Shown here in pieces: positions 2,299-21,665 of a DNA stretch of 64,000 bases (positions within the stretch are counted from its first letter, which is position 1; each line of letters starts with the position of its first letter). The notes under the pieces are model-generated. The model worked only from the letters and a program-made list of their open reading frames with translations, ran no database searches and was not told the origin of the DNA. Both the position numbers and the translations under genes were made by a program. This DNA is from a virus, in the IMG/VR virus record IMGVR_UViG_3300031555_001876; one strand, given 5' to 3'.

Positions 2299-2318
2299 TT
2301 AGGAGAATAAGATTTAAA

Positions 2319-3254: not shown

Positions 3255-3282
3255 TCCACCTAATAGAAAGGAGTAAAGAATT

Positions 3283-4248: not shown

Positions 4249-4253
4249 ATTTT

Positions 4254-4294
4254 ATCAACCCAAGACCTAAAGTGCCTTGGGTTGATTTTTTTTT
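4254..4294 (+). terminator. rho-independent terminator
   Basis: Stem ATCAACCCAAG / CTTGGGTTGAT followed by T8. Confidence 0.6.
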
Positions 4295-4310
4295 AAAATT
4301 ATGATATAAT
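4282..4310 (+). promoter_or_regulatory. sigma70-like promoter TTGATT-N17-TGATATAAT
   Basis: -35 at 4282-87; -10 at 4302-10. It lies immediately after terminator 4254-4294. Confidence 0.5.
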
Positions 4311-4503
4311 ATTTATATAAAGTACATTTTGAAAGGAGTGTTCCGACATCCCACATCCAGTAAAATGTTTTTATTGTGGTATTCAATTTGATAGAGATAA
4401 ATATCCTTTTGTTTAGATAAATGCTCGTCGGTATGCTCACGCAGAATGCGCCGATGGTGAAGAGGCTAAAAAGGCTATTCAAGAGCAAAAAGATAAAGAA
4501 GCA

Positions 4504-4866
4504 ATGGAAGAATATATTAAAAAATTATTAAATATATCTGCTTTAACTCCAAAAATAAATAAGCAAATATTAACATATAAAAATGATTATAATTATTCTT
4601 ATTCTGGCATTCATAAATCTTTGACTTATTTCTATGAAATAAAAGGGAATGATGTTTCTAAAGCAAATGGTGGCATTGGTATAGTTCCATATGTATATAA
4701 ACAAGCACTCGATTATTATTATGCACTATGGGAAGCCAAGCAAAAGAATGAAACAAAAATTGAAGTAATCAATTCTTATATTCCACAAATTAAAGAGGTT
4801 GTTATAAAAAGACCTCAATTAAAACCAAAACGAAAAGAATTATTTACTTTTCTTGACGAAGAATAG
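4504..4866 (+). CDS. hypothetical protein; a possible N-terminal Zn-ribbon extension (4333-4503) lacks a canonical start codon
   Basis: ATG 4504 is the first canonical start. The same frame is open from 4333 and encodes CFYCG..16 aa..HAEC. The terminal TAG 4864-66 may be sense, in which case the gene extends to TAA 4885-87. Confidence 0.35.
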   Translation: MEEYIKKLLNISALTPKINKQILTYKNDYNYSYSGIHKSLTYFYEIKGNDVSKANGGIGIVPYVYKQALDYYYALWEAKQKNETKIEVINSYIPQIKEVVIKRPQLKPKRKELFTFLDEE

Positions 4867-4876
4867 GAAGTGAATA

Positions 4877-7800
4877 ATGAGTAGTAAATATGTTGACCCC
4901 ACTGCTATTATGCAAGTTATTGGGTGCGTTTATAATAATCCACGATTGTTAGATTATACAGATAAATATACAATAACAGATGATGATTTTCCTGATACAT
5001 TTCATAAAACAGTGTTTGGATGTATATATAAACTTTATGAATTGGGTTCAAAGAAAATTACTTTGGAAAATATATCCGACTTTTTGGATACTCGTCCTAA
5101 AAGTCAAGCAATATATAAACAACAAAAAGGCGAAGAATGGTTATTAAAAGTAAGTGAAAATGCAAATCAATTAACTTTTGATTATTATTATGGACGAATG
5201 AAAAAAATGTCTTTACTTCGTGCATATGATAATTATGGTGTTGATGTGAGCGATATTTATGACCCTGATAACATTCTTGATACTAAAAAGAAACAATTGC
5301 AAGAAGATAATCTTGATAATTCTACATTAGATGAAATTGCTAATAAAGTCGATATGAAAATTGATTCTATTAGACTTCAATATGTAGATAATGTTTTTGG
5401 TAAAGCCCAACAAGTTGGTAGCGGCATTTTTGATTTAATTGAGCAATATAAGCAGAATCCAGAAGTAGGTATTCCTCTTTATGGTCCATTGATTAATACA
5501 GTTACTCGAGGTGCTAGACTAAAGAAATTTTATTTGCGGTCGGCGGCAACCGGAGTGGGGAAAGCAATCCCTAATAACACTTTAATTCCTACTCCTGCTG
5601 GATGGAGAAAAGTTGGAGATATTAGACCCGGAGATAAATTGTTTGGGCAAGATGGAAAAGAAACTATTGTTCTTCAAATTCATCCTCAGCCGCAGGAGAA
5701 AGAAATTTGGAAAGTAACTTTTGCAGATGGAAGAATTGCGGAATGCTGTGGAGAGCATTTATGGGAATATTGTTATAAATCTCATAGGGGATATAGTTAT
5801 AGAGTTGAAGATATTCAAACTATTTATAATAGAACACTTACATTAAAAAATGGTTTAAAAAACAGTGATGGAAAAGGATATAGATTTCATATTAAACTAA
5901 ATAATCCTGTTGAATATGAAGAAAAGCAATATTATCTTCCTCCTTATGTAATGGGTGCTCTACTTGGTGATGGCAGTTTTAGATATAATAATACCAATAA
6001 ATCTCTTGAATTTTCTTCGGCAGATGAACAAATTCCTTCTTTAATTGCTATTGCTCTTGGAAGCAACTGGCAAAAAGGAAAAGTCCATACCATTTATGCT
6101 AAAAAAAGTTCAGAAAATAATTATAGTTGGACTTTTAGAGATAAAGAAAATCCTACTCATCCTTTTTGGGTAGAAGAAATGCTAAAAGATTATCCTAAAC
6201 TTTGGAATGTTAAATCTGAAGATAAGTTTATTCCTAAAGATTATCTACAAGGTTCCATATTTCAAAGACAGTGTTTATTGCAAGGACTTATGGACACAGA
6301 TGGTTCAGTTGATGAAAAAGGTAGAACTTCTTTTACAACTATTAGTCCTCAATTAAGAGATGATTTTATTGAACTTTGTAGAAGTCTTGGTTTTATCGCT
6401 ACTTATTCGACAGACTTACGAGATAAATATTCAACAGGTGAATGTTATACAATTCATATTCAAGCCCCTAAAGAAATGAAGAAACATTTCTTTAGATTAC
6501 AAAGAAAACATAATATTATTAAAAATTATTTAGCAAATAATAAGCGAGAAGAACATAAAGACCATTTAGCAATTATAGATATTGAAAAAACTACTGAATT
6601 ATCAGATATGACTTGTTTTACAGTAGATAATGATAATCATCTGTTTTTAATGAATGATTTTATTGTTACACACAATACTCGTTCAATGATAGCCGATGCT
6701 TGTTATATTGCTTGCGAAAAAATTTATGATGAAATGTTTGGATGGATTAAAACTGGTATAAGTGAACCTGTTTTATATATTGCTACCGAGCAAGATTTGG
6801 AAGAAATCCAAACAATGATGTTAGCATTTGTTTCCAATGTTAATGAAGAGCATATTGTTAATGGACAATATGAAGATGGTGAATACGATAGAGTTAAAGA
6901 AGCAGCGAAAATATTAACTAATTCTAAACTTTATCTTGAAGAATTACCAGACTTTTCTCTTCAAGATGTTGAAAATATTATTAAAAAGAATATTCGTGAC
7001 AATGATACTAAATATATATTCAACCCGAAAAGGGTGTTGGGATAATGAAACACTTTTCCACTAATCAGTGGGGTCTGCGAACTGGAAAATTTTGGAAATT
7101 CGCAGGCTAACGGGGAACCCTAAACGAGAAATCGCAAGGGAATCCCGTGGGAAATTTGGACGAAAATAGTCAATAACTTTTTGACTTCTTTCATACTAAA
7201 ATGAAAGAAGGCGATAAAATGGGTATTATTTATTGTTTTACTAATAAAATAAATAATAAAAAATATATTGGATAGACTATTAATCCTAAATAGCGATATA
7301 ATGCTCATAAAAGCAATTATCAAAATAGTAATAATTAGGAATATAATTCTTTGCTTCATAGAGCATTTAGAAAATATGGCTTTGAAAATTTTGATTATGA
7401 AATCTTATCCAAAGATATAGATGATATAGATTTATTAAATAAATTAGAAATATTTTATATCACTAAATTTAATACAAAAGCCCCAAATGGTTATAATGTT
7501 GAGAGTGGAGGAAAAAATGCTCCTAAACCTAAAACATTAGAACATAAGAAAAAAGAAATTTGGGGTTAGGCTAAATTAACAGAAGAAGAAGTTATTGAAC
7601 TGCGAAAAGCATATAAAGCCAAGAAAAGTCCAACTGAAATTTATAATAAGAAATATAAAAATAGATTACATTATAATTCTTTTTTAAATATTTGGTCTGG
7701 ACGTAGATATGGATTAATTATGCCAGAAGTTTTTGAAAAAGGACGTCATACTAAATTAACTGCTGATATAGTAAAAAAAATAAGAAAAGATAAAGAAACT

Positions 7801-8572
7801 TTAAATCTTTCTTATCAAAAATTAGCAGATAAATATGGTATTTCTAAATCAACAATTGCTGATATAATTAATTATAGAACTTGGAAAGATGTCTAAAAAC
7901 CTGTATCGACTATTCCCTAGGTCTTATGGGCGGGGAAGTAGGGCTACTATTGATACGTAGTCGCATTTTAGGAAACGAAGTGCGTTAAATGCCGAAAAGG
8001 TGTCCTATGATAAATTATCATAGTAAGAGATAGTCAGCGCCTATGGAAACATAGGAGAACGTAGCCACGACTATATACATACTAGTATAAAAATTCTAGA
8101 AGAAATTACTCGCAAGAGTGGTGGAGTTAAATTGCGTGAAGATAATATTCTATTTATGTTATCTACTCGTTTAAAAGATATCTGTAATCAATATGGCGTA
8201 TTTATTATGTCAGCAACGCAGTTAAATGGTGATTATAAAGATAGTGAAACTCCTGACCAAAACTTATTGCGTGGTGCGAAGTCTATTGCTGATAAAATCG
8301 ATTATGGTGCAATTTTATTATCAGTAGTTGATGATGATTTAGTAAAATTAGAGAGTATTCTTGCTACTGGTCAATTTACTACACCAAATATTAAAATGTC
8401 TATTTATAAAAACCGTCGAGGCAGATATAAAGGAGTTTATTTATGGTGTAAGGCAGATTTAGGAACCTGCCGCATTAAACCTATGTTTTGTACAGATTAT
8501 CGATATGAATTACAAAGTATCGATGATATAAGAGTAAGATTTGAAGAAGAGTCAGCGTTTGAAGATGTATAA
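4877..8572 (+). CDS. DnaB-like replicative helicase, split gene: exon 1 ~4877..7038 (containing intein 5564..6676), group I intron ~7039..8064, exon 2 8065..8572
   Basis: The Walker A SAATGVGK|T is interrupted by the intein. Exon 2 reads ..DYIHTSIKILEEITRKSGG..LSTRLKDICNQYGVFIMSATQLN.. and matches the DnaB H2-H4 region. The unspliced read-through ends with the junk tail NPKRVLG*. The exon junction is uncertain by about 25 nt. Confidence 0.6.
5564..6676 (+). mobile_element. intein (371 aa) with a LAGLIDADG homing endonuclease domain, inserted in the helicase P-loop
   Basis: The insertion lies between GVGK and T of the Walker A motif. Two LAGLIDADG motifs are present (YVMGALLGDGSF, LLQGLMDTDGSV). 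The C-terminus ends ..THN followed by +1 Thr. Residue 1 is Ala, not Cys/Ser, and block F reads MTCFTVDNDNHLF. Confidence 0.6.
7039..8064 (+). mobile_element. group I intron A in the helicase gene, carrying GIY-YIG HEG 7219..7896
   Basis: The 5' part contains GCTAACGGGGAA..AATCCCGTGGGA (pairing CGGGG/CCCGT). The 3' part contains the S-like element AGATAGTCAG, a P9 hairpin CCTATGGAAACATAGG and a terminal G. These elements recur in introns B and C. The 5' splice site is uncertain; candidates are 7020, 7038 and 7043. Confidence 0.55.
7219..7896 (+). CDS. GIY-YIG homing endonuclease (intron A ORF); 4 in-frame TAGs
   Basis: Sequence MGIIYCFTNKINNKKYIG(TAG)TINPK(TAG)RYNAH..YGFENFDYEIL is present. 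A TAG sits at the Gln of the YIGQT motif. The C-terminus is HTH-like. Track ORF 7351..7569 is one fragment of this gene. Confidence 0.6.
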
Positions 8573-8825
8573 AGGAAAAAGAATTTTAATTAATCCAGTT
8601 GATGATTATAAAGGAGATATTTTTGTTATGAATGTTGCTAAACTTGGCACACTTCACGAAAAGGCAGGTTATATTGAATATAAAATGCCTTACGCTCTTG
8701 CCAAAGCATATTTGAATATGCGTAAAGAAAGTGAAAAGAAACTTCATCCTTCAGTTTACTTGGCAAAAGTTGTTAATGAAGAATTTGGTATTAAAGGCGA
8801 ATGTGTTAAGGTTATTCAGTATTAA
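8566..8825 (+). CDS. hypothetical protein
   Basis: ORF overlapping the helicase 3' end; the start was taken at ATG 8566. Confidence 0.3.
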
Positions 8826-9925
8826 TGGTTGTATTTGATAAAGCGGAAATACGAGAAGCCTTATCAATAGAAAATATATATGAGTTAATCAATGAATGGG
8901 GTGGAGATCCTGAATATACATCTTTCGGGATTATCTCTACCACCATTTGTCATAACTATCCAGGAGAGGGAAGTCGTAAATTATATTACTATGAAAATAG
9001 TGATTTATTTAAATGCTATACCGCTTGTGATGAATCCTTTGATATTTTTGAATTAACAATCAAAGTTGCTAATATTCAAAAAGGATTAGAGTATGATTTA
9101 AACGATGCGGTGCGGTTTATCGCTCAAAGATTCGGTTTGGCTGGTCGTTATGAAACTGAAATGGAAGATGAACTAGACGACTGGAAATATTTGGAAAACT
9201 ATGACCGCATTCAAGATATTAGTATCGAAACGCAAGAAGTAATTCTTAAACCTTTTGATATTGATATATTAACTCGATTTAATTATAAAATAAAAATTAC
9301 TCCGTGGCTTAATGAAGATATTACGCAAGAAGTTTTAAATAAGGCTTTTATTGGTTTTTATCCAGGAGGAGACCAAATTACTATTCCGCATTTCGATATA
9401 CATAATAGGTTTATAGGATTGCGCGGCCGCACTCTTTGTGAAGAGGAAGGCAAACTTTATGGAAAATATAGACCTATTAAAGTAAATAATATCATTTACA
9501 ATCATCCTCTTGGAATGAATTTATACAATCTTAATAATTCAAAAGTAAATATTCCTAAATTAGATAAGGCTATTATATTTGAAGGCGAAAAAAGTGTCCT
9601 TAAATATCGTTCTTATTTTGGAATAGAGAATGACATTTCTGTTGCTTGTTGCGGCAGTAGTGTTACAAATTATCAAATTCAATTACTTCGAGATTGTGGT
9701 GCAAAAGAAATTGTTATTGCTTTTGATAGACAGTTTGAAGAACTTGGCGATGATGATTTTAAGAAACTTACAAAAAAATTAACTAATATTCATAGTAAAT
9801 ATAAAAACTATGTAAATATATCATTTATGTTTGATAAAGGGAAAATTACAGGATATAAAGATTCTCCAATTGATTGTGGAAAAGAAGTATTTTTAAAATT
9901 ATTTAAGGAACGAATTAGTTTATGA
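8825..9925 (+). CDS. DnaG-like DNA primase
   Basis: A CHC2-like zinc finger is present (TICHNYPGEGSRKLYYYENSDLFKCYTAC). A TOPRIM-like motif AIIFEGEKSVL is also present. Confidence 0.55.
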   Translation: MVVFDKAEIREALSIENIYELINEWGGDPEYTSFGIISTTICHNYPGEGSRKLYYYENSDLFKCYTACDESFDIFELTIKVANIQKGLEYDLNDAVRFIAQRFGLAGRYETEMEDELDDWKYLENYDRIQDISIETQEVILKPFDIDILTRFNYKIKITPWLNEDITQEVLNKAFIGFYPGGDQITIPHFDIHNRFIGLRGRTLCEEEGKLYGKYRPIKVNNIIYNHPLGMNLYNLNNSKVNIPKLDKAIIFEGEKSVLKYRSYFGIENDISVACCGSSVTNYQIQLLRDCGAKEIVIAFDRQFEELGDDDFKKLTKKLTNIHSKYKNYVNISFMFDKGKITGYKDSPIDCGKEVFLKLFKERISL

Positions 9926-10227
9926 TTGGTATAGTTTGGGGTAAAACAAAAGCAAGAGCAGATAATTAGTTATCATAGATTATAGAAAATTATCATTGGA
10001 AAGGCATTAAACCAACAAAAATTAGAGATTCTAAATATACATCTAATTCAGTAGAATTTGAGAATGGTGATGTTTGGAAAGCGGTTAGTGCCGTTGAATC
10101 TGCTCGTGGAAATAAGTGTAATATATCTTACATAGATAAAGGAATAGATATTGAAACTATTCAAACAATTATTAAACACTCAACTTGTTGTCAGCCTTTT
10201 CAGGCATTTCAATTCTTTTGGGGAGAG
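9922..10227 (+). CDS. hypothetical protein (~101 aa, 2 in-frame TAGs)
   Basis: ATG 9922 overlaps the primase stop (ATGA). The frame is open to TGA only when TAG is read as sense. Confidence 0.3.
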
Positions 10228-10279
10228 TGAATTAATTGTATATAAAAGAATATTCAAATAAAAAGATGTGGTCTAGTCG

Positions 10280-12991
10280 ATGAAATATCAATTAATCAAT
10301 AAAGTATTTCCACCTGGATTGTCTGCGGTTGAAAAGGTCTTTTACAATCGTGGAATTAAACCAGAAAATTTAGACCATTATTTAAATACAACAGATAACG
10401 ACATTCTTGACCCATAGACTATCGCAAGAATAGATAGTGGTGTTAAAATGTTGATATCACATATCTCACAAGGTGACAAAGTTCTTATTTAGGTAGATAG
10501 CGATTGTGATGGCTATACTTCTGCGGCTACACTTATTAACTACTTAAATTGTCTCTTCCCCGGCTTTGTGTAGAATAATATATCATATCGTATCCATATG
10601 GGGAAGGAACACGGCATTTTACCAGACACAATTCCAGATGGAGTAAAATTAGTAATTGCTCCTGATTCAAGTAGCAATGATTATGAACAACATAAAATCC
10701 TAAATAAGTCTGGTATTGACGTGTTAGTAATAGACCATCACGAAGCCGAGAAAATATCTGATTATGCTTGCGTTATCAACAATCAATTATGCGATTATCC
10801 TACCAAGTCATTAAGTGGCGTTGGTATGGTATATAAGTTCTGTCAAAGAATTGATTAGTGGATGGGTTGTGATTACGCAAACCTCTTTTTAGATTTAGTC
10901 GCACTCGGTATGGTGGCAGATATGATGGACTTGCGCGATTATGAGACACGGCATTTAGTTGACCGCGGCTTAAAAAATATCCGCAATCCTTATTTCAAAG
11001 AAATGGTACAACGTCAAGCATTTCCTTTGCGGAATGGTATCACTCCTTTTGGAATAGCATTTTATATTGCTCCTTTCGTTAATGCTACTGTGCGAAGTGG
11101 AACGCAAGATGAAAAGGTCATATTATTCGAGTCTATGCTTGATTATCGGGGATATGAACGAATCCCATCAACTAAACGTGGATGTAAGGGTCAAACAGAG
11201 ACTCGGGTAGAACAGGCTTGTCGTAATTGTATAAACATTAAAAACAGGCAAACCGATACAAGAGACAAAAGTCTGGATGTAATTAAACGGATAATTGAAG
11301 AACAAAAATTGCTAGATAATAAGATATTAGTCATACTATTAAAAGAACAATATGCGACTGATAAAAACCTAACTGGTTTAATTGCTAATGAATTAGCAAA
11401 TAAACTACAAAGACCCACCCTTATCTTAAATGAAAAAGAAGATACTTGGGAAGGTTCAGCAAGAGGATACGATAAATCAGAATTAAAAGATTTTAAACAG
11501 TTCTTAACCAATAGTGGCTATTTTGAATATACTGAGGGTTAGTGGAATGGCCCTAAAACCTTTTTTCCGTGTGTCGCGGAGGTCATTTTTATTAAAATGG
11601 CTAACGGGGAATTCTAAATATAATAGAGATATTATACATGAAAATCCCGTGGGAAGATTTTCGTTATATCTCCTAAATGAAAAAATAAAGGAGATTAATT
11701 ATAATGGAAAAATATATTTATAAAATAGAAAATTTAATAAATCATAAAATTTATATTGGACAAACTAATAATTATAAAAGACGTTTTATAGAACATAAAA
11801 ATAGAGGGTATAAAAAAGATACCAAAGTTTTATATTATGCTTTTGATAAATATGGAATTGAAAATTTTGATTTTTCTATTATTGAATTTGTTAAAAATTA
11901 CAATGAACGTGAGAAATATTGGATAAAATATTATGATAGTTTTGAAAATGGTTATAATATGACAGAAGGCGGAGAAGAACCTCCTGTTTTCCATGGAGAA
12001 AATCATCATTTAGCAACTCATACTCAAATAGATAATGATTATATTGTTTATTTATTAAAAGAAACCAATATTTCTATAAAAGATATTGCTAAATTAACTA
12101 ATTATAATACTTCTTCTATTAATAGAATTAATAAAGGAGAAATGTGGCATCAAGATAATTTAGAATATCCTATAAGAAAAAAAGGAACATTATTAGAAAA
12201 GCAAGAAAGAATTAAAAAGATACAATATGATTTATTAAATACTACTTTAACCCAAAAAGAAATTGGAGAAAAATATGGAGTTGGAAGAACTACTATTACC
12301 GCAATTAATAGAGGTCAAAATGGCTATAATCCAACTTTAAATTATCCATTACGAAAATAACCTGTATCGACTATCCCAAGTGAGATTGGGAGTAGGGCTA
12401 CTATTGACACGTAGTTCGAAATGGGGTTCTGCGCGCACTCGTTCATCTAGTTAGTTGAATGATGCAAGCGCAGTAAAAGATAGTCAGGCCTTATGGAAAC
12501 ATAAAGGATTACCGCACGCCAATGCATTCGGCGCAGGAATTAAAAAAGATAAAGTTGATGATTTTATCAAATATTCAAACTCTTATTTAGCAAATTTGGA
12601 CTTCTCCCCTTGTTATAATGTAGATTTGTTATTTACAGGGAATGATTTAAATAATAAAGATATTCTTGATTTAGCAAATCTAAAATCTATATGGGGCCAA
12701 GGAGTAGAGGAACCTTTGATTGCGATAGAACATTTAAATATTCACGGCGGAAATGTTCAATTAATGTCGCGAGATAAGAACCCTACTTTGAAGATAACCT
12801 TACCAAATGGTATGAGTTTAATCAAATTCAGGTCGTCCGAAGAAGAATATAAAAAATTATATTCTGAAACGGGTTGTGTAAGTATTAACATTATTGGAAA
12901 ACCAGAACAGAACGTTTGGAATGGTATTATCAGTCCGCAAATTATTATTGAGGATTACGAAATTATAAGTCAAACAAAATACTATTTCTAA
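10280..12991 (+). CDS. RecJ-like DHH-family exonuclease, split gene: exon 1 10280..11539, group I intron 11540..12514, exon 2 12515..12991; 4 in-frame TAGs in exon 1
   Basis: Motifs DSDCDGYTSAA (DxDxDG), VIDHHE (DHH) and, across the exon junction, EG|HANAFGAG (RecJ GGHxxAAG motif) are present. Exon 1 ends in U. The intron ends in G. Confidence 0.6.
11540..12514 (+). mobile_element. group I intron B in the RecJ-like gene, carrying GIY-YIG HEG 11704..12360
   Basis: The 5' splice site follows GGU 11537-39. The conserved elements GCTAACGGGGAA..AATCCCGTGGGA, AAGATAGTCAGG and P9 CCTTATGGAAACATAAAGG are present. The terminal G is at 12514. Splicing restores the RecJ motif. Confidence 0.6.
11704..12360 (+). 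CDS. GIY-YIG homing endonuclease (intron B ORF); no TAG codons
   Basis: Sequence KIYIGQTNNYKRRFIEHKN..YGIENFDFSIIE is present. Gln in the motif is encoded by CAA. The C-terminal region has HTH repeats. Confidence 0.7.
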   Translation: MEKYIYKIENLINHKIYIGQTNNYKRRFIEHKNRGYKKDTKVLYYAFDKYGIENFDFSIIEFVKNYNEREKYWIKYYDSFENGYNMTEGGEEPPVFHGENHHLATHTQIDNDYIVYLLKETNISIKDIAKLTNYNTSSINRINKGEMWHQDNLEYPIRKKGTLLEKQERIKKIQYDLLNTTLTQKEIGEKYGVGRTTITAINRGQNGYNPTLNYPLRK

Positions 12992-13042
12992 TAATTACAC
13001 AATGAGACCTAATAGTAATATTAGGAGGAAAATATAATTATT

Positions 13043-13816
13043 ATGAAAAAATTATTTTTAGTATTGTTTAGTATTATTATCTTATTGAATTGTACAGTTT
13101 TTGCATCCGCTACTACAGTTCAAATGTTAAAAACCAATGTCATTTATCTGAAAGATTTATCTACTGATGAATTAAAAAGATTAGCAGAAGAACAAAAAGA
13201 ATTAAAAGAAAAAATCCATTTAGAAGCAGAATTATTAAGAGAAAGAGGATATGATGAAAATTCACCCTCAATTAGTCTGTTAAAAGAACAATGGAAAAAC
13301 GCAAATGATAAAGAACAAATTTATTATGAAAATTGGTATAATAAATTTTTTGGAAATGACTCTGATTGGACTAAAGAAATAGAAGAATATCCAGTAGCAA
13401 CTTATGTATGGCGCTATATGAAAGGTTTAGGATATAGTGACGCGGTCGCCGCAGGTATCTTGGGTAATATGATGCTTGAATGCGGTGGCGGCACCCTTAA
13501 ATTAAAATGGGATATTTATAATGATACTAAAACATTCTATGGTGTTTGTCAATGGAGTAAAACTTATCATTCCGATGTATATGGAGTAAGTTTAGAATCG
13601 CAGATGAATTATTTGCGCGATACCATTAAAGAGCAAATTGATAAATATGGCTTTGCTTATGGAGGCAATGGTTTTGATTATGAAGACTTCTTAAAATTAG
13701 AAGACGCTGATGAAGCCGCTTTATGTTTCGCTAGAGCATATGAAAGACCTAACGAAGCCCATATTCCTGTGCGAGCATATTTTGCACAAAATGCTTACAA
13801 TTATTTTGTTAAGTAA
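13043..13816 (+). CDS. secreted protein with a lysozyme-like C-terminal domain (phage tail-lysozyme-like)
   Basis: An N-terminal signal peptide MKKLFLVLFSIIILLNCTVFASA is present. The segment AAGILGNMMLECGG resembles the catalytic region of phage tail lysozyme or lytic transglycosylase families. Confidence 0.35.
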   Translation: MKKLFLVLFSIIILLNCTVFASATTVQMLKTNVIYLKDLSTDELKRLAEEQKELKEKIHLEAELLRERGYDENSPSISLLKEQWKNANDKEQIYYENWYNKFFGNDSDWTKEIEEYPVATYVWRYMKGLGYSDAVAAGILGNMMLECGGGTLKLKWDIYNDTKTFYGVCQWSKTYHSDVYGVSLESQMNYLRDTIKEQIDKYGFAYGGNGFDYEDFLKLEDADEAALCFARAYERPNEAHIPVRAYFAQNAYNYFVK

Positions 13817-13824
13817 TTATATAT

Positions 13825-13860
13825 GGTTATAATAGGAAAATATTTTCCTATTATAACCCT
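13825..13860 (+). terminator. terminator-like perfect palindrome after the lysozyme-like gene
   Basis: GGTTATAATAGGAAAATA|TTTTCCTATTATAACC. Confidence 0.45.
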
Positions 13861-13913
13861 TATTTTCATTTATGGAGTTGATACTATGAAAAAATTTTAA
13901 AGGAGAATTTTAA

Positions 13914-14477
13914 ATGCCTTTAACATCACAACAAATTGAAAATGAAATAAAAAAGTTATAGACAAAAAATCTTGAATTAGAATAGGAGATAAATTGTTTT
14001 CGTAATAAAAATTATACTGATAATTGGAAATTAAATTAGAAAATAGAAGGGCACGAAACAATTCTTAATGAATTACGAAGTAATTTAGATCCAATTCTTT
14101 CTCAACAAATTTATGATTCATATTTTTTATCAAATTAGTTAACAGATATTGTAGAAAATAAAAATAAAATTAATGAGTTATATCAATTAGCAAATTATAA
14201 TATGAGTAAAATTGATTCATTAGAAACTTCTATTGATTCATTAAAAGAATCAATAGTTAAAATTGGTATAGATGCTGAAACAATGAGTAAAGCACTCAAA
14301 GAAGTTAGTGAAAAACTCAAAGAGATGGCTCCGGCCGGGGGCAGTCAAGAAAATCGTGTTCCCGAACCTGAAAGTGATTTAGAAATTTTTGACCAAATTG
14401 AACCAAATAAAAATGATGCTGAATTTTTAGAATGGCTCAATAATGCAAATAATTATTTTTATAGAGAAGAATGGTGA
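13914..14477 (+). CDS. coiled-coil hypothetical protein; 4 in-frame TAGs
   Basis: Track ORF 14202..14477 extends upstream in frame to ATG 13914 through TAGs. Confidence 0.35.
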
Positions 14478-14493
14478 GAGGAGGAAGTAGACC

Positions 14494-15666
14494 TTGGTCT
14501 TAACTAAAAAGCAAGAAGAAGGATTAAAGATAGCAGTAGAACGTTATCGTAATAATGAGCCATATACTTGTATAGCAGGTTATGCAGGAACAGGTAAGTC
14601 GACATTAGTTAAATTTATTATTTCCGCCTTGAACGTTTATCCAGAAGATGTATGTTATGTAGCATATACCGGTAAAGCAGCGAAAGTTCTCGCAGAAAAA
14701 GGTTGCCCTAATGCGATGACGGCGCATAGATTATTATATAAATCTATTCCAAGAGACGATGGAACTTTTTATCATAAGATTAAAAGACCATTAGATTATC
14801 CTTATAAATTAATTGTAGTCGACGAAATTTCTATGCTTCCAAAAGAAATGTGGGATTTACTTTTATCTCATAATATCTATGTTATTTGCCTTGGCGACCC
14901 ATTTCAGTTGCCTCCAATAGGAGAAGATAATGGAGTTCTTTATGATGCTCACATCTTCCTTGATGAAATTATGCGGCAGGCGCAAGAAAGTGAAATTATT
15001 CGTTTAACTATGGATATTCGTGAAGGTAAACCTTTACAATTATTTAGAGGTAACGAGGTTCAAGTAGTTAATAAAATTGATTTAGTTGATGGAATGTATA
15101 CTTGGGCTGACTAGATTATTGTAGGTAAAAATGATACTCGTAGAAATATTAACGCGTGTATGCGAAAAATGCTTTTTGGTATTGAAGATGGCGCGCCCAT
15201 TGTAGGAGATAAAGTAATCTGTTTGCGCAATGACTGGGAACACCCTAGTGAAGCAGGCGATATTGCTGTTAATGGCACTATTGGATATTTAACTAGTATT
15301 CATTATAATAAATATCATCCTTATCTTCATCCTCAATTAATTGCTGATTTTTTACCTGATACTTATAGTATTGAAGATGTAGAAAGAAGTCCTTATGATT
15401 TATTTTTTAGAAATGTAAATATGGATTATAAACTTCTTACTACTGGTGAAGAAACAGTTAATAATAAAAATTTTAAATTCTTTCCAAAGCAACATAGACC
15501 TCAAGTATATGATTATGGATATTGTATTACTTGTCATAAAGCGCAAGGTAGCGAATATGATAAAGTTTTAGTTATTGAAGAATTTTTAAAAGGTAATGAA
15601 CACGCTCGTTGGCTATATACTGCTGCTACAAGAGCAAAAGAAAAACTTGTTATTGTGAGGAAATAA
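14494..15666 (+). CDS. Dda/RecD-like SF1 DNA helicase; one in-frame TAG at 15115
   Basis: Walker A GYAGTGKST and Walker B LIVVDEISML are present. The C-terminal motifs YCITCHKAQGSEYD and AATRAKEKL are present. Track ORFs 14494..15114 and 15160..15666 share a frame and are joined by the TAG. Confidence 0.6.
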
Positions 15667-15668
15667 TT

Positions 15669-15827
15669 ATGGAAATGACTGTTAATGTAAAAGATTGTAG
15701 AAAGTTTGTAGAAGATTCTAAATTTTCTCAATTTCTTTTAAATAATACTACTGATTTTTCAGTAGCCGCTTGGGTATTATCTACTTTATTAAACGAGTTG
15801 GATAAGTATGAAGTTGATTCTAATTAA
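15669..15827 (+). CDS. small hypothetical protein (52 aa)
   Basis: ATG 15669 lies just after the helicase stop. Confidence 0.25.
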   Translation: MEMTVNVKDCRKFVEDSKFSQFLLNNTTDFSVAAWVLSTLLNELDKYEVDSN

Positions 15828-15843
15828 AAAATATGTTATAATA
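15815..15843 (+). promoter_or_regulatory. sigma70-like promoter TTGATT-N17-TGTTATAAT upstream of the polymerase gene
   Basis: -35 at 15815-20; -10 at 15835-43. Confidence 0.5.
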
Positions 15844-15876
15844 TTTATATAAAATAATTATTGAGGAAGTAATTGA

Positions 15877-18800
15877 ATGTATTTTAATTGTCATAATCAT
15901 ACAATGTATTCGAATCTTCGATTACTTGACTGTATTAATCAACCAAAAGATTTAATTGATAAAGCAATTGAATTAGGTCTTTCTGGAATTGCTATTACTG
16001 ACCACGAATGTTTGTCAGCGCATATGGAAGTAAATCAATATGCTAAAAAACTTTTAGTAACTAATCCTGATTTTACTATTGCATTAGGTAATGAAATTTA
16101 TTTAACTGATGATAGAGAATCAGGACAAAAGTATTATCACTTTATTTTAATCGCAAAAGACGCTTTAGGGCATAAAGCATTAAGAGAATTAAGTTCTATT
16201 GCTTGGTATAATTCTTATGTTGATAGACGTATGGAAAGAGTTCCAACAACAAAAGAAGAACTTGCCGAAGTTGTTCTTAAATATAAAGGACATTTAATTG
16301 CGACAACTGCTTGTATTGGCGGTGAATTAGGCACCAATATTCTTTATATGCTTGATTGTGATAGAGTTGGTGATACTATTAATAGAATGACTTATCATAA
16401 TAATATTATTGAATTTATTCAATATTGTAAAAATCTATTTGATGATGATTTCTATATTGAATGCGCTCCTTCAAGCACGGCAGACCAAATCGCAGTTAAT
16501 AAAATGCTATTAAAAATTGCCTCTGTTTTTGATGTTAAATTAGTTCCTGGAACTGACTCTCATTATTTAACTGCAAAAGAAAGACCAATTCATAAAGCAT
16601 ATCTTAATTCAAAAAATGGTGAAAGAGAAGTTGATGATTTTTATGAATTTTCTCATTTGATGGATTCTAATGAATTATATAATTTATTAAAATTATCATA
16701 TGAACAGTCTGTTATTAATGAAATCATATCTAATTCATTAGAACTTCAAAAGAAAATTACTTTTTACTCTCTTGAACGCAAACAAATTATTCCAAAAGTA
16801 GAAGTTTTAGATTATCAAAAAACCTTATCTCATTTTGGTATTAATAATAATTTGCGAGATGAATTAGATAATAGTTGGCCTACTATTAAAAGTCTTTTAT
16901 TATCCGATGATATCCAAGAACGGTATTGGATTAATGAATGTTTAAATGGATTAATTGATAAGGATTTGTGGAAATATGAGTATATTTCAAGAATAGAAAC
17001 AGAAGCAGACATTATAAAATATATTGGTTCTGGTCTAAATGATTGCCTTTTTGCTTATTTTAATACCTTTAAACATTATATTGATTTATTTTGGGAGTGC
17101 GGTAGTATTGTAGGACCAGGGCGAGGAAGTGCTACCGGTTTTTTATCAAATTATTTACTTGGTATTACGCAACTTGACCCCATCCGTTGGAATCTCCCTT
17201 GGTGGCGTTTTCTGAATCGGGAGAGATTAGAACTACCGGATATCGATATAGACCTTGCACCATCCAAGCGCCCTTCTATATTCAACGCCATTCGCGAAGA
17301 GCGTGGTGAGTTTGGTCTCATTCAAGTAGCCACCTTCGGAACAGAAGGAACAAAATCAGCAGTCTTAACTGCTTGCCGTGGTTATAGAAGTGAAGATTAT
17401 CCAGATGGTATCGACGTAGACCAAGCGCAATATATGTCCTCTTTAATTCCGCAAGAACGTGGTTTCTTATGGGATATTAAAGATGTTGTATATGGTAATC
17501 CAGAGAAAGACCGCAAACCTGTTACGACTTTTATTAGAGAAGTAAATAGATTTCCAGGTTTATTAGATATTATTATGTCTATTGCAGGTCTTGTAAATAA
17601 GCGCTCTTCTCACGCTTCTGGTGTTATTTTATATGGCGAAGACCCATATGATACAGCGGCTTTTATGAGAACTCCTAGTGGTGATTTAATTACTTGCTAT
17701 GACCTACATAAAGCAGAAGCCGCAGGAGATACTAAATATGATTTCCTAGTAACAGAAGTTTCAGATAAAATTATTAAATGTATTGAATTACTTATTGAAG
17801 ATGGAGTTATTAAACAAGACAGTTTAAGAAATACTTATAATAGTATTCTTCATCCAGAAGTATTAGATACAACTGATAAAAAGATTTGGGAACATCTTGC
17901 CGCAGGTGATGTTCTTGATGTATTCCAGTTTAGTGGTGGTGTCGGTTTAGCAATTGCTAAAAAACTAAAACCGCAAGACCCTCTAGAAATGACTGCGGCG
18001 AATGCTATGATGAGACTGATGAGTGAAAAAGGCGTTGAATCACAGCAAGATAGATATGCTAGAATTCAACGAGAAGGTATTCATATTTTTGATTGGGAAA
18101 TGAAACAAAAAGGTTTACCAGAAAATATGATTGCTAAATTACATAAACATTGTGATAAGTATTTTGGTTGTTGTCCTATCCAAGAGCAGATGATGGAAAT
18201 ACTTATGGATGTTGCTGGATTTACTCTTGGAGAAGCAAACTCTGCTCGAAAGATTGTTGCTAAAAAGCAAATGGATAAAATTCCACAATTAAAAGAACAG
18301 GTATTTAGTAGATTTGATAATCATAATATTGCTGATTATTTTTGGAAATTAGCAGTAGCACCGCAATTAGGGTAAATGGCTTGCCCTTACACACCTAACC
18401 TGTTATCGCAGGGGTAAATTAATAACCCTTTTTGGGGCTAAACTTATTAATTTGCTAACGGGGAAAGTTAAGTATTAATGAAAGAATCATTAATATATAC
18501 CAATCCCGTGATAAATGTCTTAATGGTCCTTTAATACATCTTAAAGGAGAAATGAAATGGTATTTTATATTTATAAATATACTAATTTAATTAATAATAA
18601 AAAATATGTTGGTTAGACTAATAATTTTCAAAGAAGAGTCAACGAACATAAAAGTTGTTCTTTTAATCCCAATAGTGTAAATTATGATGATAAAATTCAT
18701 CAAGCAATTCGTAAATATGGATATAGCAACTTTAAAATTGAAATTCTTGAAATTATAACAGAGGCTAAAACATATGATTTAGTGAATGAACGTGAAAGTT

Positions 18801-20876
18801 ATTGGATTAAAGAAGAGCAAAGTTTATTGACTCAATGGGGATATAATGTTTTAGAAGGTGGAAATAATAGTTGGAGGTCTTTTTTAACACAAGAAGATGT
18901 TGAAAAGATAAAAATGATGATTAAAGATGAAATACCTTATTCAAAAATACAAGAATATTATCCCATATCTAAAACTTTTATTTCAGGCATCAATTCTGGA
19001 AAATATTTTTATAATGAAAAAGAAATATATCCTTTATGCAGATATCGAATTTCTAATGATATCTATGATGCTTTAATTGAAGATTTAATAAAACCTGAAC
19101 TGACTTTTAAAGAACTAGCACAACGATATAATTTAGGAGAATCAACTATTAAAAAATTTAATTATGGCACATTACAAAAAGGATATTATAAAGGTGAATA
19201 TCCTATTAGAAAAATAACTCCACAAAAATATAAAAGACAATTGATAAAAGAATATTTATTAAACACTAATCTCCTATATAAAGATATTGTAAAATTAACT
19301 GGAACGTCTGATGAAACAGTGCGCAGAGTTAATATAGGTGCAATTGATAAAGATGAAAATTTAAAATATCCATTAAGATAAATATTGTAGAGACTATTCT
19401 GGGTGAGACCGGAAGTAGGATTACTATTGATACGTAGTTCGAAATGGTGTGCTATAATTTGTATATTATAGTAAAAGATAGTCCAGTCCTCATAGAAATA
19501 TGAGAATAACTGATGCATTTAGTTTGAATCATTCTCTTCCTTATTCATTTGTTGGTATTCAAACTATTTATTTAGCATATAAATTTAATCCTATTTATTG
19601 GAATACTGCTTGCTTAATTGTTAATAGTGGCGCTACTGATGAAGAAGCAGGCGGTCAAACTGATTATGGTAAAATAGCAAAAGCAATTGGAGATATTAGA
19701 AGTGCGGGTATTAAAGTCAGTCTTGCTAATATTAACCGATCTAAATTTGGTTTCGCTCCTGACGTAGATAAGAATCAAATACTTTTCGGTCTCAAAGGAT
19801 TGCTAAATGTTGGCGATGAAATTGTCCAAAAGACAATTGAAAATAGACCTTATTTTTCTGTAAAAGACTATGTAAATAAAGTTAAACCAGGTAAACAAGC
19901 AATGATTTCCCTTATTAAGGGAGGGGCTTTTGATGAATTAGAACCTGATAGAAAATTTACAATGGCTTGGTATATCTGGGATAATTGTGATAAAAAGAAA
20001 AGAATTACTCTTCAAAATATGCCAGGATTAATCAAATATGATTTAATTCCAAAAGACACAGAAGATAGAATTACTGCTTATCGAGTATATGAATTTAATC
20101 GTTATTTGAAAGCAACTTGTAAATTCACTCCTACTGATTATAAAGTAGATGAACGTGCTTATAACTTTTTGATAAAAATTTCTTGTGATGATATGATTCA
20201 CGGAGATATGTTATTAGGAGTTAAACAATGGGATAAAATTTATCAATCTTATATGGATATCTTCCGTGCGTGGATTAATGAAAATAAAAACCAAATTCTT
20301 AATGATTTAAATAGTAAAATCTTTAAAGAAGATTGGGATAAATATGCGTCCGGCAATATCTCTTCTTGGGAAATGGAAGCATTATGTTTCTATTATCACG
20401 AACACGAATTATCTAATGTAAATAGATGGAAGTATGGATTCGCTGATTTCTTTAAACTTCCAGTAGAACCAGTAATTGCTTCTACGTTTGAGCGCGGAGG
20501 TAAAGATATTAATATTCTTAAATTAGATAAAATTTATGGAACTTGTATTGCGAAGAATAAAAATAAATCGACAGTTACTTTACTAACTCCTACTGGCGTT
20601 GTCGAAGTAAAGTTTAGAAAAGAATATTTTAGTTTGTTTGATAAAAGAATTAGTGAACGTGGAGAAGATGGCGCAAAACATATTGTTGAAAAATCTTGGT
20701 TTGACCGAGGTAGTATGATTGTTGTTATGGGATTCCGTTCTGGTGATAATTTTATTACAAAGAAATATGCGAAAGATTCTGGTCATCAATTATATAAAAT
20801 TGATAAAGTAGAAGAAAATGGCGATTTAATTTTGCGCTCTACAAGATATCAAGGAGAGGAAGAAGAAGATGGCTAA
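15877..20876 (+). CDS. DNA polymerase III alpha-like replicative polymerase (DnaE/PolC family, N-terminal PHP domain), split gene: exon 1 15877..18373, group I intron 18374..19512, exon 2 19513..20876
   Basis: A PHP motif (HNHTMYSNL..ITDHE) is present. Splicing joins ..APQLG-Y-AFSLNHSLPYSFVGIQTIYLAYKF.., which matches the conserved DnaE YAFNKSH..Y.LKAHYP segment. Exon 1 ends in U at 18373. The intron's terminal G is at 19512. Confidence 0.65.
18374..19512 (+). mobile_element. group I intron C in the polymerase gene, carrying GIY-YIG HEG 18557..19381
   Basis: The same conserved core as A and B is present (GCTAACGGGGAA..AATCCCGTG; AAGATAGTCCAG; P9 TCATAGAAATATGA). The exon phase is restored on removal. 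Confidence 0.65.
18557..19381 (+). CDS. GIY-YIG homing endonuclease (intron C ORF); one in-frame TAG
   Basis: Sequence MVFYIYKYTNLINNKKYVG(TAG)TNNFQRRVNEHKS is present. The gene is continuous with track ORF 18782..19381. Confidence 0.65.
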
Positions 20877-21601: not shown

Positions 21602-21649
21602 ACACAAAATATAGTGTGGCACTACTTATTGCCATACTATATTTGTGAT
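21602..21649 (+). promoter_or_regulatory. two NrdR-box-like palindromes upstream of nrdD
   Basis: ACACAAAATATAGTGT lies at 21602-17 and ATACTATATTTGTGAT at 21634-49, spaced 32 bp start to start. They resemble the NrdR operator consensus acaCwAtATaTwGtgt in tandem arrangement. Confidence 0.35.
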
Positions 21650-21665
21650 GGAGGATACTAAATAT

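What the first reader, a model, noticed from the sequence alone, without database searches (positions are those of the whole stretch)
7039..19512. Three related group I introns, each carrying a GIY-YIG endonuclease ORF, interrupt the helicase, RecJ-like and polymerase genes
Each replication gene reads through into a short junk tail and resumes ~1 kb later in a conserved protein segment (DnaB H2-H4 region; RecJ GGHxxAAG; DnaE YAFNKSH). The three intervening sequences share blocks flanking a GIY-YIG ORF. Upstream are GCTAACGGGGAA ... AATCCCGTG (complementary CGGGG/CCCGT). Downstream are CCTGTATCGACTAT, GTAGGGCTACTATTGAYACGTAGTTCGAAATGG, the S-like element AAGATAGTC, a P9-like hairpin (CCTATGGAAACATAGG) and a terminal G. 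For introns B and C the junctions (exon ending in U, intron ending in G) restore conserved motifs exactly (EG|HANAFGAG; LG-Y-AF). A homing-type spread among essential replication genes of one phage is implied. Intron A junctions are uncertain by ~25 nt.
Basis: partly seen in the sequence, partly recalled or inferred. Interest (0 to 1): 0.8.

Follow-up and report, generated by a model that had tools for sequence, protein, structure and literature searches.

The report
Three phage group I introns confirmed
Three self-splicing (group I) introns, each carrying its own homing-endonuclease gene, interrupt the helicase, RecJ-like exonuclease and DNA polymerase genes of a gut phage that reads the TAG stop codon as glutamine; this is a well-known kind of mobile element, here in an unusually dense cluster and with a core layout that standard RNA models miss.

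Summary
Intron-less alleles in close relatives fix the insertions at 7021-8064 (helicase), 11540-12514 (RecJ-like) and 18374-19512 (Pol III alpha). Each exon 1 ends in U and each intron in G. Rfam RF00028 finds nothing, but it also misses the textbook T4-type td intron in genomic context, so that negative is uninformative. A covariance model built only from other phages' introns hits exactly these three loci (62-85 bits; next best 16) and also td (57 bits). P3, P4, P5, P7.1, P7.2 and P9 covary across the family. P6/P6a and P8 were identified by complementarity only. Each ORF sits in the P6 loop and passes the Pfam GIY-YIG threshold, but ORFs A and C are intact only if TAG = Gln, as across this TAG-recoded phage. 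The core is td-like (subgroup IA) but atypical: no P2, two hairpins between P3 and J3/4, and a minimal P9. The three introns are not each other's closest relatives. Each has same-site orthologs in other phages, so independent homing fits better than spread within one genome. Verdict: new members of a known kind, of moderate interest.

The parts
4877..7020 (+). Helicase (DnaB-type) exon 1; also contains a 371-aa intein at 5564-6676
   Evidence: Pfam DnaB, DnaB_C and LAGLIDADG_3. Uninterrupted 509-512 aa homologs read GVGK|TRSMIADAC and TKYIF|HDYIHTS. Nucleotide alignment to L004/L006. Intein coordinates.
7021..8064 (+). Intron A (1044 nt). P1: UAUU 7017-7020 x GAUA 7041-7044 with U7020.G7041, plus an inner stem 7021-7026/7032-7039. 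P3: 7050-7057 x 7996-8003. Two inserted hairpins: 7058-7071 and 7073-7107. J3/4: 7108-7110. P4: 7111-7115 x 7144-7148. P5: 7118-7140. P6a: 7155-7161 x 7891-7897. P7: 7908-7913 x 8030-8035. P7.1: 7914-7936. P7.2: 7942-7962. Extra hairpin: about 7962-7984. P8: 8005-8023. P9: 8040-8055 (GAAA loop). Terminal G: 8064.
   Evidence: Boundaries from intron-less alleles. Model R1 hit 7900-8064, 71 bits, E 6e-14. Helix coordinates. P3 test.
7219..7896 (+). HEG-A: 225-aa GIY-YIG endonuclease ORF in the P6 loop. In-frame TAG at 7273, 7291, 7336 and 7567. The stop codon TAA lies inside the P6a 3' strand.
   Evidence: PF01541 35.6 bits (cutoff 22.6) and HTH_3 25.3 bits (cutoff 23) with TAG = Q. Three of the four TAGs align to Gln in an ortholog (YIGQT, WGQAKLT, EQR). 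71% identical to the L110 ORF and 59% to the L072 ORF.
8065..8572 (+). Helicase exon 2 (C8065 completes the codon UU|C)
10280..11539 (+). RecJ-like exonuclease exon 1 (four in-frame TAG = Gln at 10415, 10490, 10571, 10856)
   Evidence: Pfam DHH, DHHA1 and RecJ_OB on the spliced 578-aa product. Relatives encode an uninterrupted 578-579 aa RecJ. TAG positions.
11540..12514 (+). Intron B (975 nt). P1: AGGGU 11535-11539 x GCCCU 11550-11554. P3: 11557-11562 x 12423-12428. Inserted hairpins: 11565-11581 and 11582-11601. J3/4: 11602-11604. P4: 11605-11609 x 11646-11650. P6a: 11657-11663 x 12352-12358. P7: 12369-12374 x 12480-12485. P7.1: 12375-12390. P7.2: 12396-12416. P8: 12429-12473. P9: 12489-12507. 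Terminal G: 12514.
   Evidence: Intron-less alleles L004/L006. Gap-free alignment to solved RecJ 8y30 across ...EG|HANAFGAG. R1 hit 61.7 bits, E 7e-12. Coordinates.
11704..12360 (+). HEG-B: 218-aa GIY-YIG ORF in the P6 loop, with no TAG. Its last codons and stop overlap the P6a 3' strand.
   Evidence: PF01541 34.9 bits and HTH_3 24.2 bits. 53-61% identical ORFs sit at the same RecJ site in L172-L179.
12515..12991 (+). RecJ-like exon 2
15877..18373 (+). DNA polymerase III alpha (DnaE-type) exon 1; ends with the first base (U18373) of a Tyr codon
   Evidence: Pfam PHP, DNA_pol3_alpha, finger and HHH_6 on the spliced 1286-aa product. Uninterrupted 1310/1321-aa relatives read AVAPQLG-Y-AFSLNHSLPYSFVG.
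18374..19512 (+). Intron C (1139 nt). P1: AGGGU 18369-18373 x GCCCU 18383-18387. P3: 18390-18395 x 19446-19451. Inserted hairpins: 18399-18412 and 18414-18455. J3/4: 18456-18458. P4: 18459-18463 x 18505-18509. P6a: 18518-18526 x 19370-19378. P7: 19392-19397 x 19478-19483. P7.1: 19398-19413. P7.2: 19419-19439. P8: 19452-19471. P9: 19489-19504. Terminal G: 19512.
   Evidence: junction. R1 hit 19384-19513, 85.3 bits, E 4e-17. Coordinates.
18557..19381 (+). HEG-C: 274-aa GIY-YIG ORF in the P6 loop, with one in-frame TAG at 18614 (the Q of YVGQT)
   Evidence: PF01541 39.7 bits. The TAG aligns with Gln in all homologs compared. Best match is 42% to the ORF of the EF1 intron at the same polymerase codon.
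19513..20876 (+). DNA polymerase III alpha exon 2

Best explanation
These are three mobile group I introns of the phage td-like (subgroup IA) lineage, each with a GIY-YIG homing-endonuclease gene in the loop of P6. Inferred mechanism: each replication gene is transcribed with its intron. The RNA folds into the P1 / P3-P8 / P4-P6 / P7 core. A free guanosine bound in P7 attacks after the U of the U.G pair in P1 (U7020, U11539, U18373). The terminal G (8064, 12514, 19512) then takes its place and the exons are ligated. This restores a helicase (883-aa precursor, 512 aa once its intein is removed), a 578-aa RecJ-like exonuclease and a 1286-aa polymerase. The endonuclease is translated from its own Shine-Dalgarno site. 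Its synthesis is probably kept low or late by a hairpin that hides that site and, for A and C, by in-frame TAG codons that need the phage's TAG-to-Gln decoding. In mixed infections the enzyme would cut the intron-less allele of a related phage near the insertion site, and repair would copy the intron in (homing). What is shown here: exact insertion boundaries, U...G ends, restored reading frames, homology to verified group I introns, covariation of most helices (P6/P6a and P8 rest on complementarity only), intact GIY-YIG domains, presence/absence polymorphism among close relatives, and recurrence at the same codons in distant phages. What is inferred: actual splicing, endonuclease activity and specificity, and the timing of its translation.
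For: Boundaries and restored frames. Homology: model R1, built from 17 non-window introns including an RF00028-positive one, hits only the three loci (85.3, 71 and 61.7 bits; next best 16) and also hits td (56.8 bits). RF00028 scores ORF-less relatives at 98.5 and 85.4 bits (L086) and a same-layout relative at 35 bits, E 1.5e-5 (L141). Covariation: 97.2% of cells paired against 74% shuffled and 33-43% slid, with 17 of 22 pairs compensatory. P3: cognate 13.6 against non-cognate 9.6, 0/5000 permutations. P4, P5 and the first inserted hairpin. P4 CGAG/CUCG. P6a pairing across each ORF. GIY-YIG above the Pfam cutoff. TAG = Gln. Empty sites in relatives 89-98% identical. Same-site orthologs. Hairpins sequestering the Shine-Dalgarno site. 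Published precedent for recoded stops delaying an intron endonuclease: 10.1101/2021.08.26.457843. The I-TevI delayed-translation paper is cited in PMC3984707.
Against: RF00028 gives no hit in the window even at E<=10, although the td control fails in the same way. P1 of intron A is only 4 bp and P10 is weak in all three. There is no P2 and no P9.1/P9.2, and two hairpins sit where J3/4 normally follows P3 directly, so activity of this layout has not been shown for any member. P7 is invariant and so gives no covariation evidence; P6/P6a and P8 were not tested for covariation. The hairpin before HEG-C is not better than shuffles (z -0.2). No suppressor tRNA lies in the window. No RNA data exist.
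Confidence: 0.9

Rival explanations
1. One reading: one intron entered this phage and then spread by ectopic homing to two further replication genes of the same genome.
For: All three share the same unusual core layout and long identical blocks and lie within 13 kb.
Against: They are not nearest relatives. RNA identity is 61-69% among themselves against 68-76% to foreign introns. HEGs are 28-34% identical to each other against 71%, 61% and 42% to same-site orthologs in other phages. The close relatives examined lack them: both A and B are absent from L004-L007, and C from the more distant L012/L014. The same layout occurs in dozens of unrelated phage and MAG contigs.
Confidence: 0.07
2. The insertions are splicing-dead relics or free-standing endonuclease cassettes, and the host proteins are made as separate fragments (genes in pieces).
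For: Splicing is not demonstrated. The layout is atypical and RF00028 does not score it.
Against: Downstream exons have no start codon or ribosome-binding site of their own. Junction C splits a codon (U|AU). All catalytic-core elements and the U...G ends are conserved, with compensatory changes across the family. Three essential replication genes would all be affected. The fragments cut through single folded domains (Walker B region of the helicase, the DHHA1 GGH motif, the polymerase YAFNKSH motif).
Confidence: 0.04
3. HEG-A (four TAG) and HEG-C (one TAG) are decaying pseudogenes, not recoded functional genes.
For: Under the standard code they are interrupted. No suppressor tRNA is in the window. 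Endonuclease genes in fixed introns commonly decay.
Against: TAG is the only kind of interruption, with no frameshifts or other stops. HEG-A aligns end to end at 71% identity with an intact ortholog, and TAGs fall on Gln positions. TAG is used as a sense codon in many other genes of this window, including the RecJ host gene and all large late genes.
Confidence: 0.12

Closest known systems
Phage T4 td intron with I-TevI (subgroup IA2 group I intron carrying a GIY-YIG endonuclease)
   Same: P4-P5 module UAA(A)CGGGGAAC...AAUCCCGUG. 3' core GACUAU - P7.1 - AGUAGGG - P7.2 - CGAAA - P3' - P8 - (G/A)AGAUAUAGUC - P9. Scored by the same model R1. GIY-YIG ORF in the P6 loop with its own ribosome-binding site and a hairpin over it. 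Sits in a conserved DNA-metabolism gene.
   Different: td has P2 between P1 and P3, and its P3 (UCUAUC/GAUAGA) abuts J3/4. Here P3's 5' strand follows the guide sequence directly, and two hairpins separate it from J3/4. td has a long P9.1/P9.2 tail, while here only 7-9 nt follow P9. The host genes differ.
Unnamed introns of Enterococcus phages EF1/EF5 and VRE9_3 (split Pol III alpha, primase and other genes; one ORF annotated 'Phage intron')
   Same: Same layout including the two inserted hairpins. 83-90% identity over 65-100 nt stretches of the 3' core (86.5% for intron A, 89.9% and 83.3% for intron B). The second EF1 polymerase intron sits at the same codon as intron C (G-U|AU, GY[AS]FS) and its ORF is the best match to HEG-C.
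   Different: Different phage lineage and standard genetic code. The introns are not annotated as RNA features in those records. The first EF1 polymerase intron carries an HNH, not a GIY-YIG, ORF.
Recoded group I intron endonuclease of 'Agate' phages (Borges et al., 10.1101/2021.08.26.457843)
   Same: An intron endonuclease inserted in an early gene of a stop-codon-recoded gut phage carries in-frame recoded stops, which are proposed to delay its production until late.
   Different: There the recoded codon is TGA; here it is TAG. Here only two of the three HEGs carry recoded codons, and one host gene (RecJ-like) carries them too, so the early/late split is not clean.
Rfam RF00028 (Intron_gpI) consensus
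   Same: P4-P6, P7, P3', P8 and P9 align over the full model in ORF-less relatives.
   Different: Window introns get no hit. Same-layout ORF-less relatives score 35 bits at best, below the cutoff of 50, or nothing. The model expects P1-P2-P3-J3/4.

Membership tests
Group I intron | Score at or above the gathering threshold of Rfam RF00028 | tested here: not met
   No hit in the window at the gathering score or at E<=10. The test is uninformative here, because the genuine td intron also gets no hit in genomic context. ORF-less relatives score 98.5 and 85.4 bits (L086) and 35 bits, E 1.5e-5 (L141, same layout).
Group I intron | 5' exon ends in U paired with G of an internal guide sequence (P1); intron ends in G | tested here: met
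   U7020.G7041, U11539.G11550 and U18373.G18383; terminal G at 8064, 12514 and 19512. Boundaries were fixed independently by intron-less alleles.
Group I intron | Conserved core P3-P8, P4-P6 and P7 (with the P3/P7 pseudoknot and P/Q/R/S elements), supported by covariation | tested here: met
   P7 is invariant, which is uninformative. P3, P4, P5, P7.1, P7.2 and P9 covary. P6/P6a and P8 were identified by complementarity only and were not tested for covariation.
Group I intron | Removal restores the host reading frame exactly | tested here: met
   Spliced products match uninterrupted homologs residue for residue at all three junctions.
Group I intron | Guanosine-initiated self-splicing | not testable with these tools
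   Needs an in vitro splicing assay or RT-PCR.
Subgroup IA2 (td-like) | Two hairpins P7.1 and P7.2 in domain 7 (PMC4227781) | tested here: met
   Both are present between P7 and P3' and covary.
Subgroup IA2 (td-like) | Extended domain 9 (P9.0, P9.1, P9.2) (PMC4227781) | tested here: not met
   A single P9 hairpin is followed by 7-9 nt and the terminal G.
Subgroup IA2 (td-like) | Canonical order P1-P2-P3-J3/4-P4 | tested here: not met
   P3's 5' strand follows the guide sequence directly, and two hairpins lie between it and J3/4 (0/5000 permutations). The canonical position shows no signal. td itself is canonical.
GIY-YIG homing endonuclease (I-TevI-like) | GIY-YIG catalytic domain (PF01541) above the curated cutoff | tested here: met
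   35.6, 34.9 and 39.7 bits against a cutoff of 22.6, reading TAG as Gln.
GIY-YIG homing endonuclease (I-TevI-like) | C-terminal DNA-binding module | tested here: inconclusive
   HTH_3 is just above its cutoff in A (25.3/23) and B (24.2/23). Only sub-threshold HTH matches are found in C.
GIY-YIG homing endonuclease (I-TevI-like) | Site-specific cleavage of the intron-less allele and homing | not testable with these tools
   Indirect support only: empty sites in relatives 89-98% identical and same-site orthologs in distant phages.
TAG-to-Gln recoded phage (genetic code 15 type) | Coding capacity restored when TAG is sense; TAG falls at conserved Gln positions | tested here: met
   14.8k to 23.7k aa in ORFs of at least 100 aa, with 12-52 in-frame TAG in the large late genes. 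Gln is seen in orthologs at TAG positions.
TAG-to-Gln recoded phage (genetic code 15 type) | Phage-encoded suppressor tRNA(CUA) | tested here: not met
   No tRNA lies in the 64-kb window. Relatives have genomes of about 200 kb, so the gene may lie outside the window.

The most novel reading that the evidence does not exclude
The shared core layout is an undescribed architectural sub-class of IA group I introns. It has no P2, the P3 5' strand lies directly after the guide sequence, two covarying hairpins are inserted between P3 and J3/4, an optional conserved-loop hairpin (UUUUAGGAAACGAAG) lies before P3', and P9 is minimal. This sub-class would be widespread in phages of gut and rumen Bacillota and systematically invisible to Rfam. 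In recoded phages it would use in-frame TAG, together with hairpins over the ribosome-binding site, to keep ribosomes out of the ribozyme until late in infection.
Probability: 0.35. Interest if true: 0.5.

Novelty: new member of a known kind. Interest (0 to 1): 0.35.

Why it matters
Practically, gene callers and Rfam-based pipelines will report three essential replication genes of this phage, and of many gut-phage relatives, as fragmented or pseudogenised. This happens for two independent reasons: unrecognised introns and TAG recoding. A dedicated covariance model such as the one built here would fix the first. Biologically, the locus packs four selfish elements (three introns and one intein) into about 15 kb of a replication module. 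It documents three recurrent homing sites: helicase KY(I/V)F|(H/F)DYIH, RecJ-like G|H..A.G and Pol III alpha G-Y-(A/S)FS. It also adds a TAG-code example to the published idea that recoded stops time the expression of intron endonucleases. None of this changes the current understanding of group I introns.

Tried and rejected
(1) Rfam at the gathering score and at E<=10 on the window found nothing. I rejected this as evidence against introns after the EF1 'phage intron' locus and the td locus also gave nothing. (2) For intron A I first assumed, by analogy with B and C, that the 5' splice site followed AAAAGGGU (7035). I rejected this because there is no matching guide sequence and homologs show KYIF|HDYIH. 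(3) A solved-structure search for the helicase did not reach the junction, so I used metagenomic homologs instead. (4) I tested P3 in the canonical position next to J3/4 and rejected it. (5) BLAST of the 5' core against phages found only the Enterococcus phages, not T4. I located td from a fragment remembered from the literature and verified it at 100% identity. (6) MAFFT with RNAalifold did not recover P8 or the inserted hairpins because their lengths vary. The first inserted hairpin was counted with an explicit structure. The second inserted hairpin, P8 and P6a were judged by eye only. (7) Most of the 120 viral-contig hits to the degenerate R-element pattern were chance matches; 25 were kept after requiring the S element. 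(8) P10 pairings are 2-3 bp and were not pursued. (9) A literature search for a P2-less or displaced-P3 layout found only the general statement that P2 can be absent. I could not establish whether the two-hairpin layout has been described before.

Full report
OBSERVATION. GCTAACGGGGAA occurs exactly three times and CTATTGAYACGTAGT exactly three times, all on the + strand at the stated places. Short blocks such as AAGATAGTC are not above chance on their own, and some quoted blocks are exact in only one or two of the three copies. The co-linear arrangement around three ORFs is nevertheless unambiguous. The three host genes break off and resume as described.

GENETIC CODE. Allowing TAG as a sense codon raises the total length of ORFs of at least 100 aa from 14.8k to 23.7k aa, and the large minus-strand late genes carry 12-52 in-frame TAG each. 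This is a TAG-recoded phage. The GIY-YIG ORFs of introns A and C contain 4 and 1 in-frame TAG, and the RecJ-like host gene contains 4. Read as Gln, all three intron ORFs pass the Pfam GIY-YIG cutoff (35.6, 34.9 and 39.7 bits against 22.6). The TAGs fall where orthologs have Gln (YIGQT, WGQAKLT, EQR). No tRNA gene lies in the window.

HOST GENES AND JUNCTIONS. The spliced products are a DnaB-type helicase, a RecJ-like exonuclease (DHH + DHHA1 + RecJ_OB) and a DnaE-type Pol III alpha (PHP + core + finger + HHH_6). The DnaB_C and DHHA1 domain matches run across the junctions; junction C lies between the finger and HHH_6 matches. Junctions B and C align without gaps to solved RecJ (fgGHhmAaG) and Pol III alpha (nYgFNkSHaaaY). 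A search of metagenomic proteins found thousands of uninterrupted helicase homologs of 509-512 aa, up to 98% identical. They read ...TKYIF-HDYIHTS... and ...ATGVGK-TRSMIADAC.... Their contigs carry an uninterrupted helicase and an uninterrupted 578-579 aa RecJ, and more distant ~200 kb relatives carry an uninterrupted 1310-aa polymerase. Nucleotide and protein alignments to these empty-site alleles fix the insertions at 7021-8064 (1044 nt), 11540-12514 (975 nt) and 18374-19512 (1139 nt). Its junctions for B and C, and its 3' end for A, were exact. Each exon 1 ends in U and each intron ends in G.

IS IT A GROUP I INTRON? Rfam RF00028 gives no hit in the window at the gathering score or at E<=10. 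I treated this as a test to be controlled. The same search also finds nothing in an Enterococcus phage locus with an annotated 'phage intron'. It finds nothing either in a T4-type td locus, the textbook self-splicing intron with I-TevI in P6. The negative therefore carries no weight.

Positive evidence came from relatives. A pattern scan of viral contigs, filtered for the S element, gave 25 related 3' cores. Two ORF-less introns in L086, one of which shares our 3' core, score 98.5 and 85.4 bits with RF00028. A covariance model (R1) built from 17 non-window 3' halves hits the window only at 19384-19513 (85.3 bits, E 4e-17), 7900-8064 (71 bits) and 12361-12483 (61.7 bits). The next best hit is 16 bits, E 0.13. 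R1 also hits the td 3' core, which was not in its training set, at 56.8 bits. On 44 aligned family members, 97.2% of pair cells are paired, against 74% in shuffles and 33-43% when partners are slid. Seventeen of 22 pairs have compensatory changes. P7 is invariant. This alignment was fitted to the model, which favours the structure, but RNAalifold on a plain MAFFT alignment predicted the same P7, P7.1, P7.2 and P9.

CORE LAYOUT. The P4-P5 module (UAACGGGGAA...AAUCCCGUG) and the 3' core closely resemble those of td. P4 shows a G-C to A-U double change in RecJ-site orthologs (CGAG/CUCG). P6a forms across each ORF (A: UUUGGAC/GUCUAAA; B: AUUUUCG/CGAAAAU; C: UCUUAAUGG/CCAUUAAGA), so the ORF occupies the P6 loop, and in A and B its stop codon lies in or next to the 3' strand. 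P6/P6a and P8 rest on complementarity only and were not tested for covariation.

The unexpected feature is P3. The strand after CGAAAU (P3' by homology with td and L086) pairs with the 5-8 nt that directly follow the guide sequence. Covariation is extensive (ACAC/GUGU, AACC/GGUU, UGGUU/AGCCA, AGAC/GUCU, AUAUCU/AGAUAU). Cognate duplex scores average 13.6 against 9.6 for non-cognate pairs, and 0 of 5000 permutations reach that value. The canonical position next to J3/4 shows no signal (7.8 against 8.3). So there is no P2, and two hairpins lie between P3 and J3/4. The first (UUCCACU...AGUGGGG) covaries (CCGCU/AGCGG, CAGCU/AGCUG; 78% paired despite alignment slips). The second varies in length but always closes GU...GC; I judged it by eye only.

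P9 is a single GAAA-loop hairpin followed by 7-9 nt, with no P9.1 or P9.2. Intron A and several relatives have a further hairpin with a conserved loop, UUUUAGGAAACGAAG, before P3'; its stem changes in a compensatory way between members as seen by eye. The same layout is present in all 36 stretches found in gut and rumen Bacillota MAGs, where P3 again covaries. ORF-less members with this layout are missed by RF00028 (L099, L114) or score 35 bits, E 1.5e-5, below the cutoff of 50 (L141). This explains why Rfam is blind to them. Published hallmarks of IA2 are P7.1/P7.2 plus P9.0-9.2 (PMC4227781), and absence of P2 is known in some introns (PMC3984707). I could not find, and cannot exclude, a prior description of hairpins between P3 and J3/4.

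ORIGIN. The three introns are not each other's nearest relatives. 3'-core identities are A-B 63%, A-C 69% and B-C 61%, against 68-76% to introns of other phages (B is underestimated because its long P8 was misaligned). The endonucleases are 28-34% identical to each other. HEG-A is 71% identical to an ORF in L110 and 59% to one in L072, and both of those introns sit at the same helicase codon (exon 2 HDYIHTS / FDYIHTS). HEG-C's best match (42%) is the EF1 intron at the same polymerase codon (G-U|AU, GY[AS]FS). HEG-B has 53-61% identical relatives in at least six viral contigs (L172, L174, L175, L177-L179) at the same RecJ-like G|H..A.G site, with the same AGGGU/GCCCU P1. Other family members occupy nrdD, a GyrB-like topoisomerase, the primase (FEG|EKS) and other polymerase sites (by inspection). 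Together with the empty sites in relatives 89-98% identical, this fits independent site-specific homing from co-infecting phages better than spread within one genome.

EXPRESSION OF THE ENDONUCLEASES (inferred). Each ORF has its own Shine-Dalgarno sequence, and in the minimum-energy fold that sequence is paired with an upstream complement. The z-scores are -3.1 for A, -2.3 for B and -0.2 (not significant) for C. This parallels I-TevI, whose delayed translation is reported to be needed for efficient splicing (Gibb and Edgell 2010, cited in PMC3984707). An in-frame TAG at codon 19 in A and at codon 20 in C would stop ribosomes early unless TAG is decoded. Borges et al. proposed the same idea for a TGA-recoded intron endonuclease in Agate phages. 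Here the picture is not clean: HEG-B has no TAG and the RecJ host gene has four.

VERDICT. The feature is real and the main interpretation is correct. Corrections are the 5' junction of A, the genetic code, the unsupported inference of intragenomic spread, and the invalid refutation criterion. It is a new set of members of a well-known kind. The atypical, Rfam-invisible layout and the density of selfish elements give it moderate interest.

Noticed in passing
window 1-64000, especially the minus-strand genes at 32353-60190: The phage is TAG-recoded (TAG = Gln). Large late genes carry 12-52 in-frame TAG each. The helicase, primase and polymerase carry none, while the RecJ-like gene carries four. 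No tRNA gene lies in the window.
   Followed up: partly
window 5564-6676 (+): A 371-aa intein with a LAGLIDADG endonuclease domain is inserted in the helicase P-loop (GVGK|T). It begins with Ala, not Cys or Ser, and ends ...THN|T. It is absent from homologs up to 98% identical.
   Followed up: partly
window 7962-7984; also L001, L026, L103, L104, L109, L132: An optional extra hairpin lies between P7.2 and P3', with a strongly conserved loop UUUUAGGAAACGAAG and a stem whose changes look compensatory by eye. It is present in intron A but not in B or C, and may be a tertiary-contact module.
   Followed up: no
window 21645-23921 (+): The anaerobic ribonucleotide reductase (NrdD-like) gene is uninterrupted here. 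Its QQFG|GVSATH and GCRTANGWD sites carry introns of the same family in other phage contigs (L054, L146; L043, L060, L132).
   Followed up: no
L086 3956-4683 (-); L110 1545-4411 (-); L033 and L111: Some viral contigs carry two to four introns of this family within 1-3 kb. In L086, two ORF-less copies start less than 450 nt apart.
   Followed up: no
window 2292-4866 and L004-L014: The replication module is SPbeta-like (YorF, AAA_24 and YorH-like genes, helicase, RecJ-like, DnaE-type polymerase). Relatives come from contigs of about 130-290 kb in gut metagenomes, and some were binned into Bacillota MAGs.
   Followed up: no
window 14287-15666 (+): A RecD/Pif1-like helicase appears as two ORFs (14494-15114 and 15160-15666) under the standard code. 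With TAG as sense it is a single frame, and relatives encode one 394-aa protein.
   Followed up: no
window 45636-45739 (-): Weak match to the intron 3'-core model (16 bits, E 0.13) inside a late gene. It is most likely a chance match.
   Followed up: no
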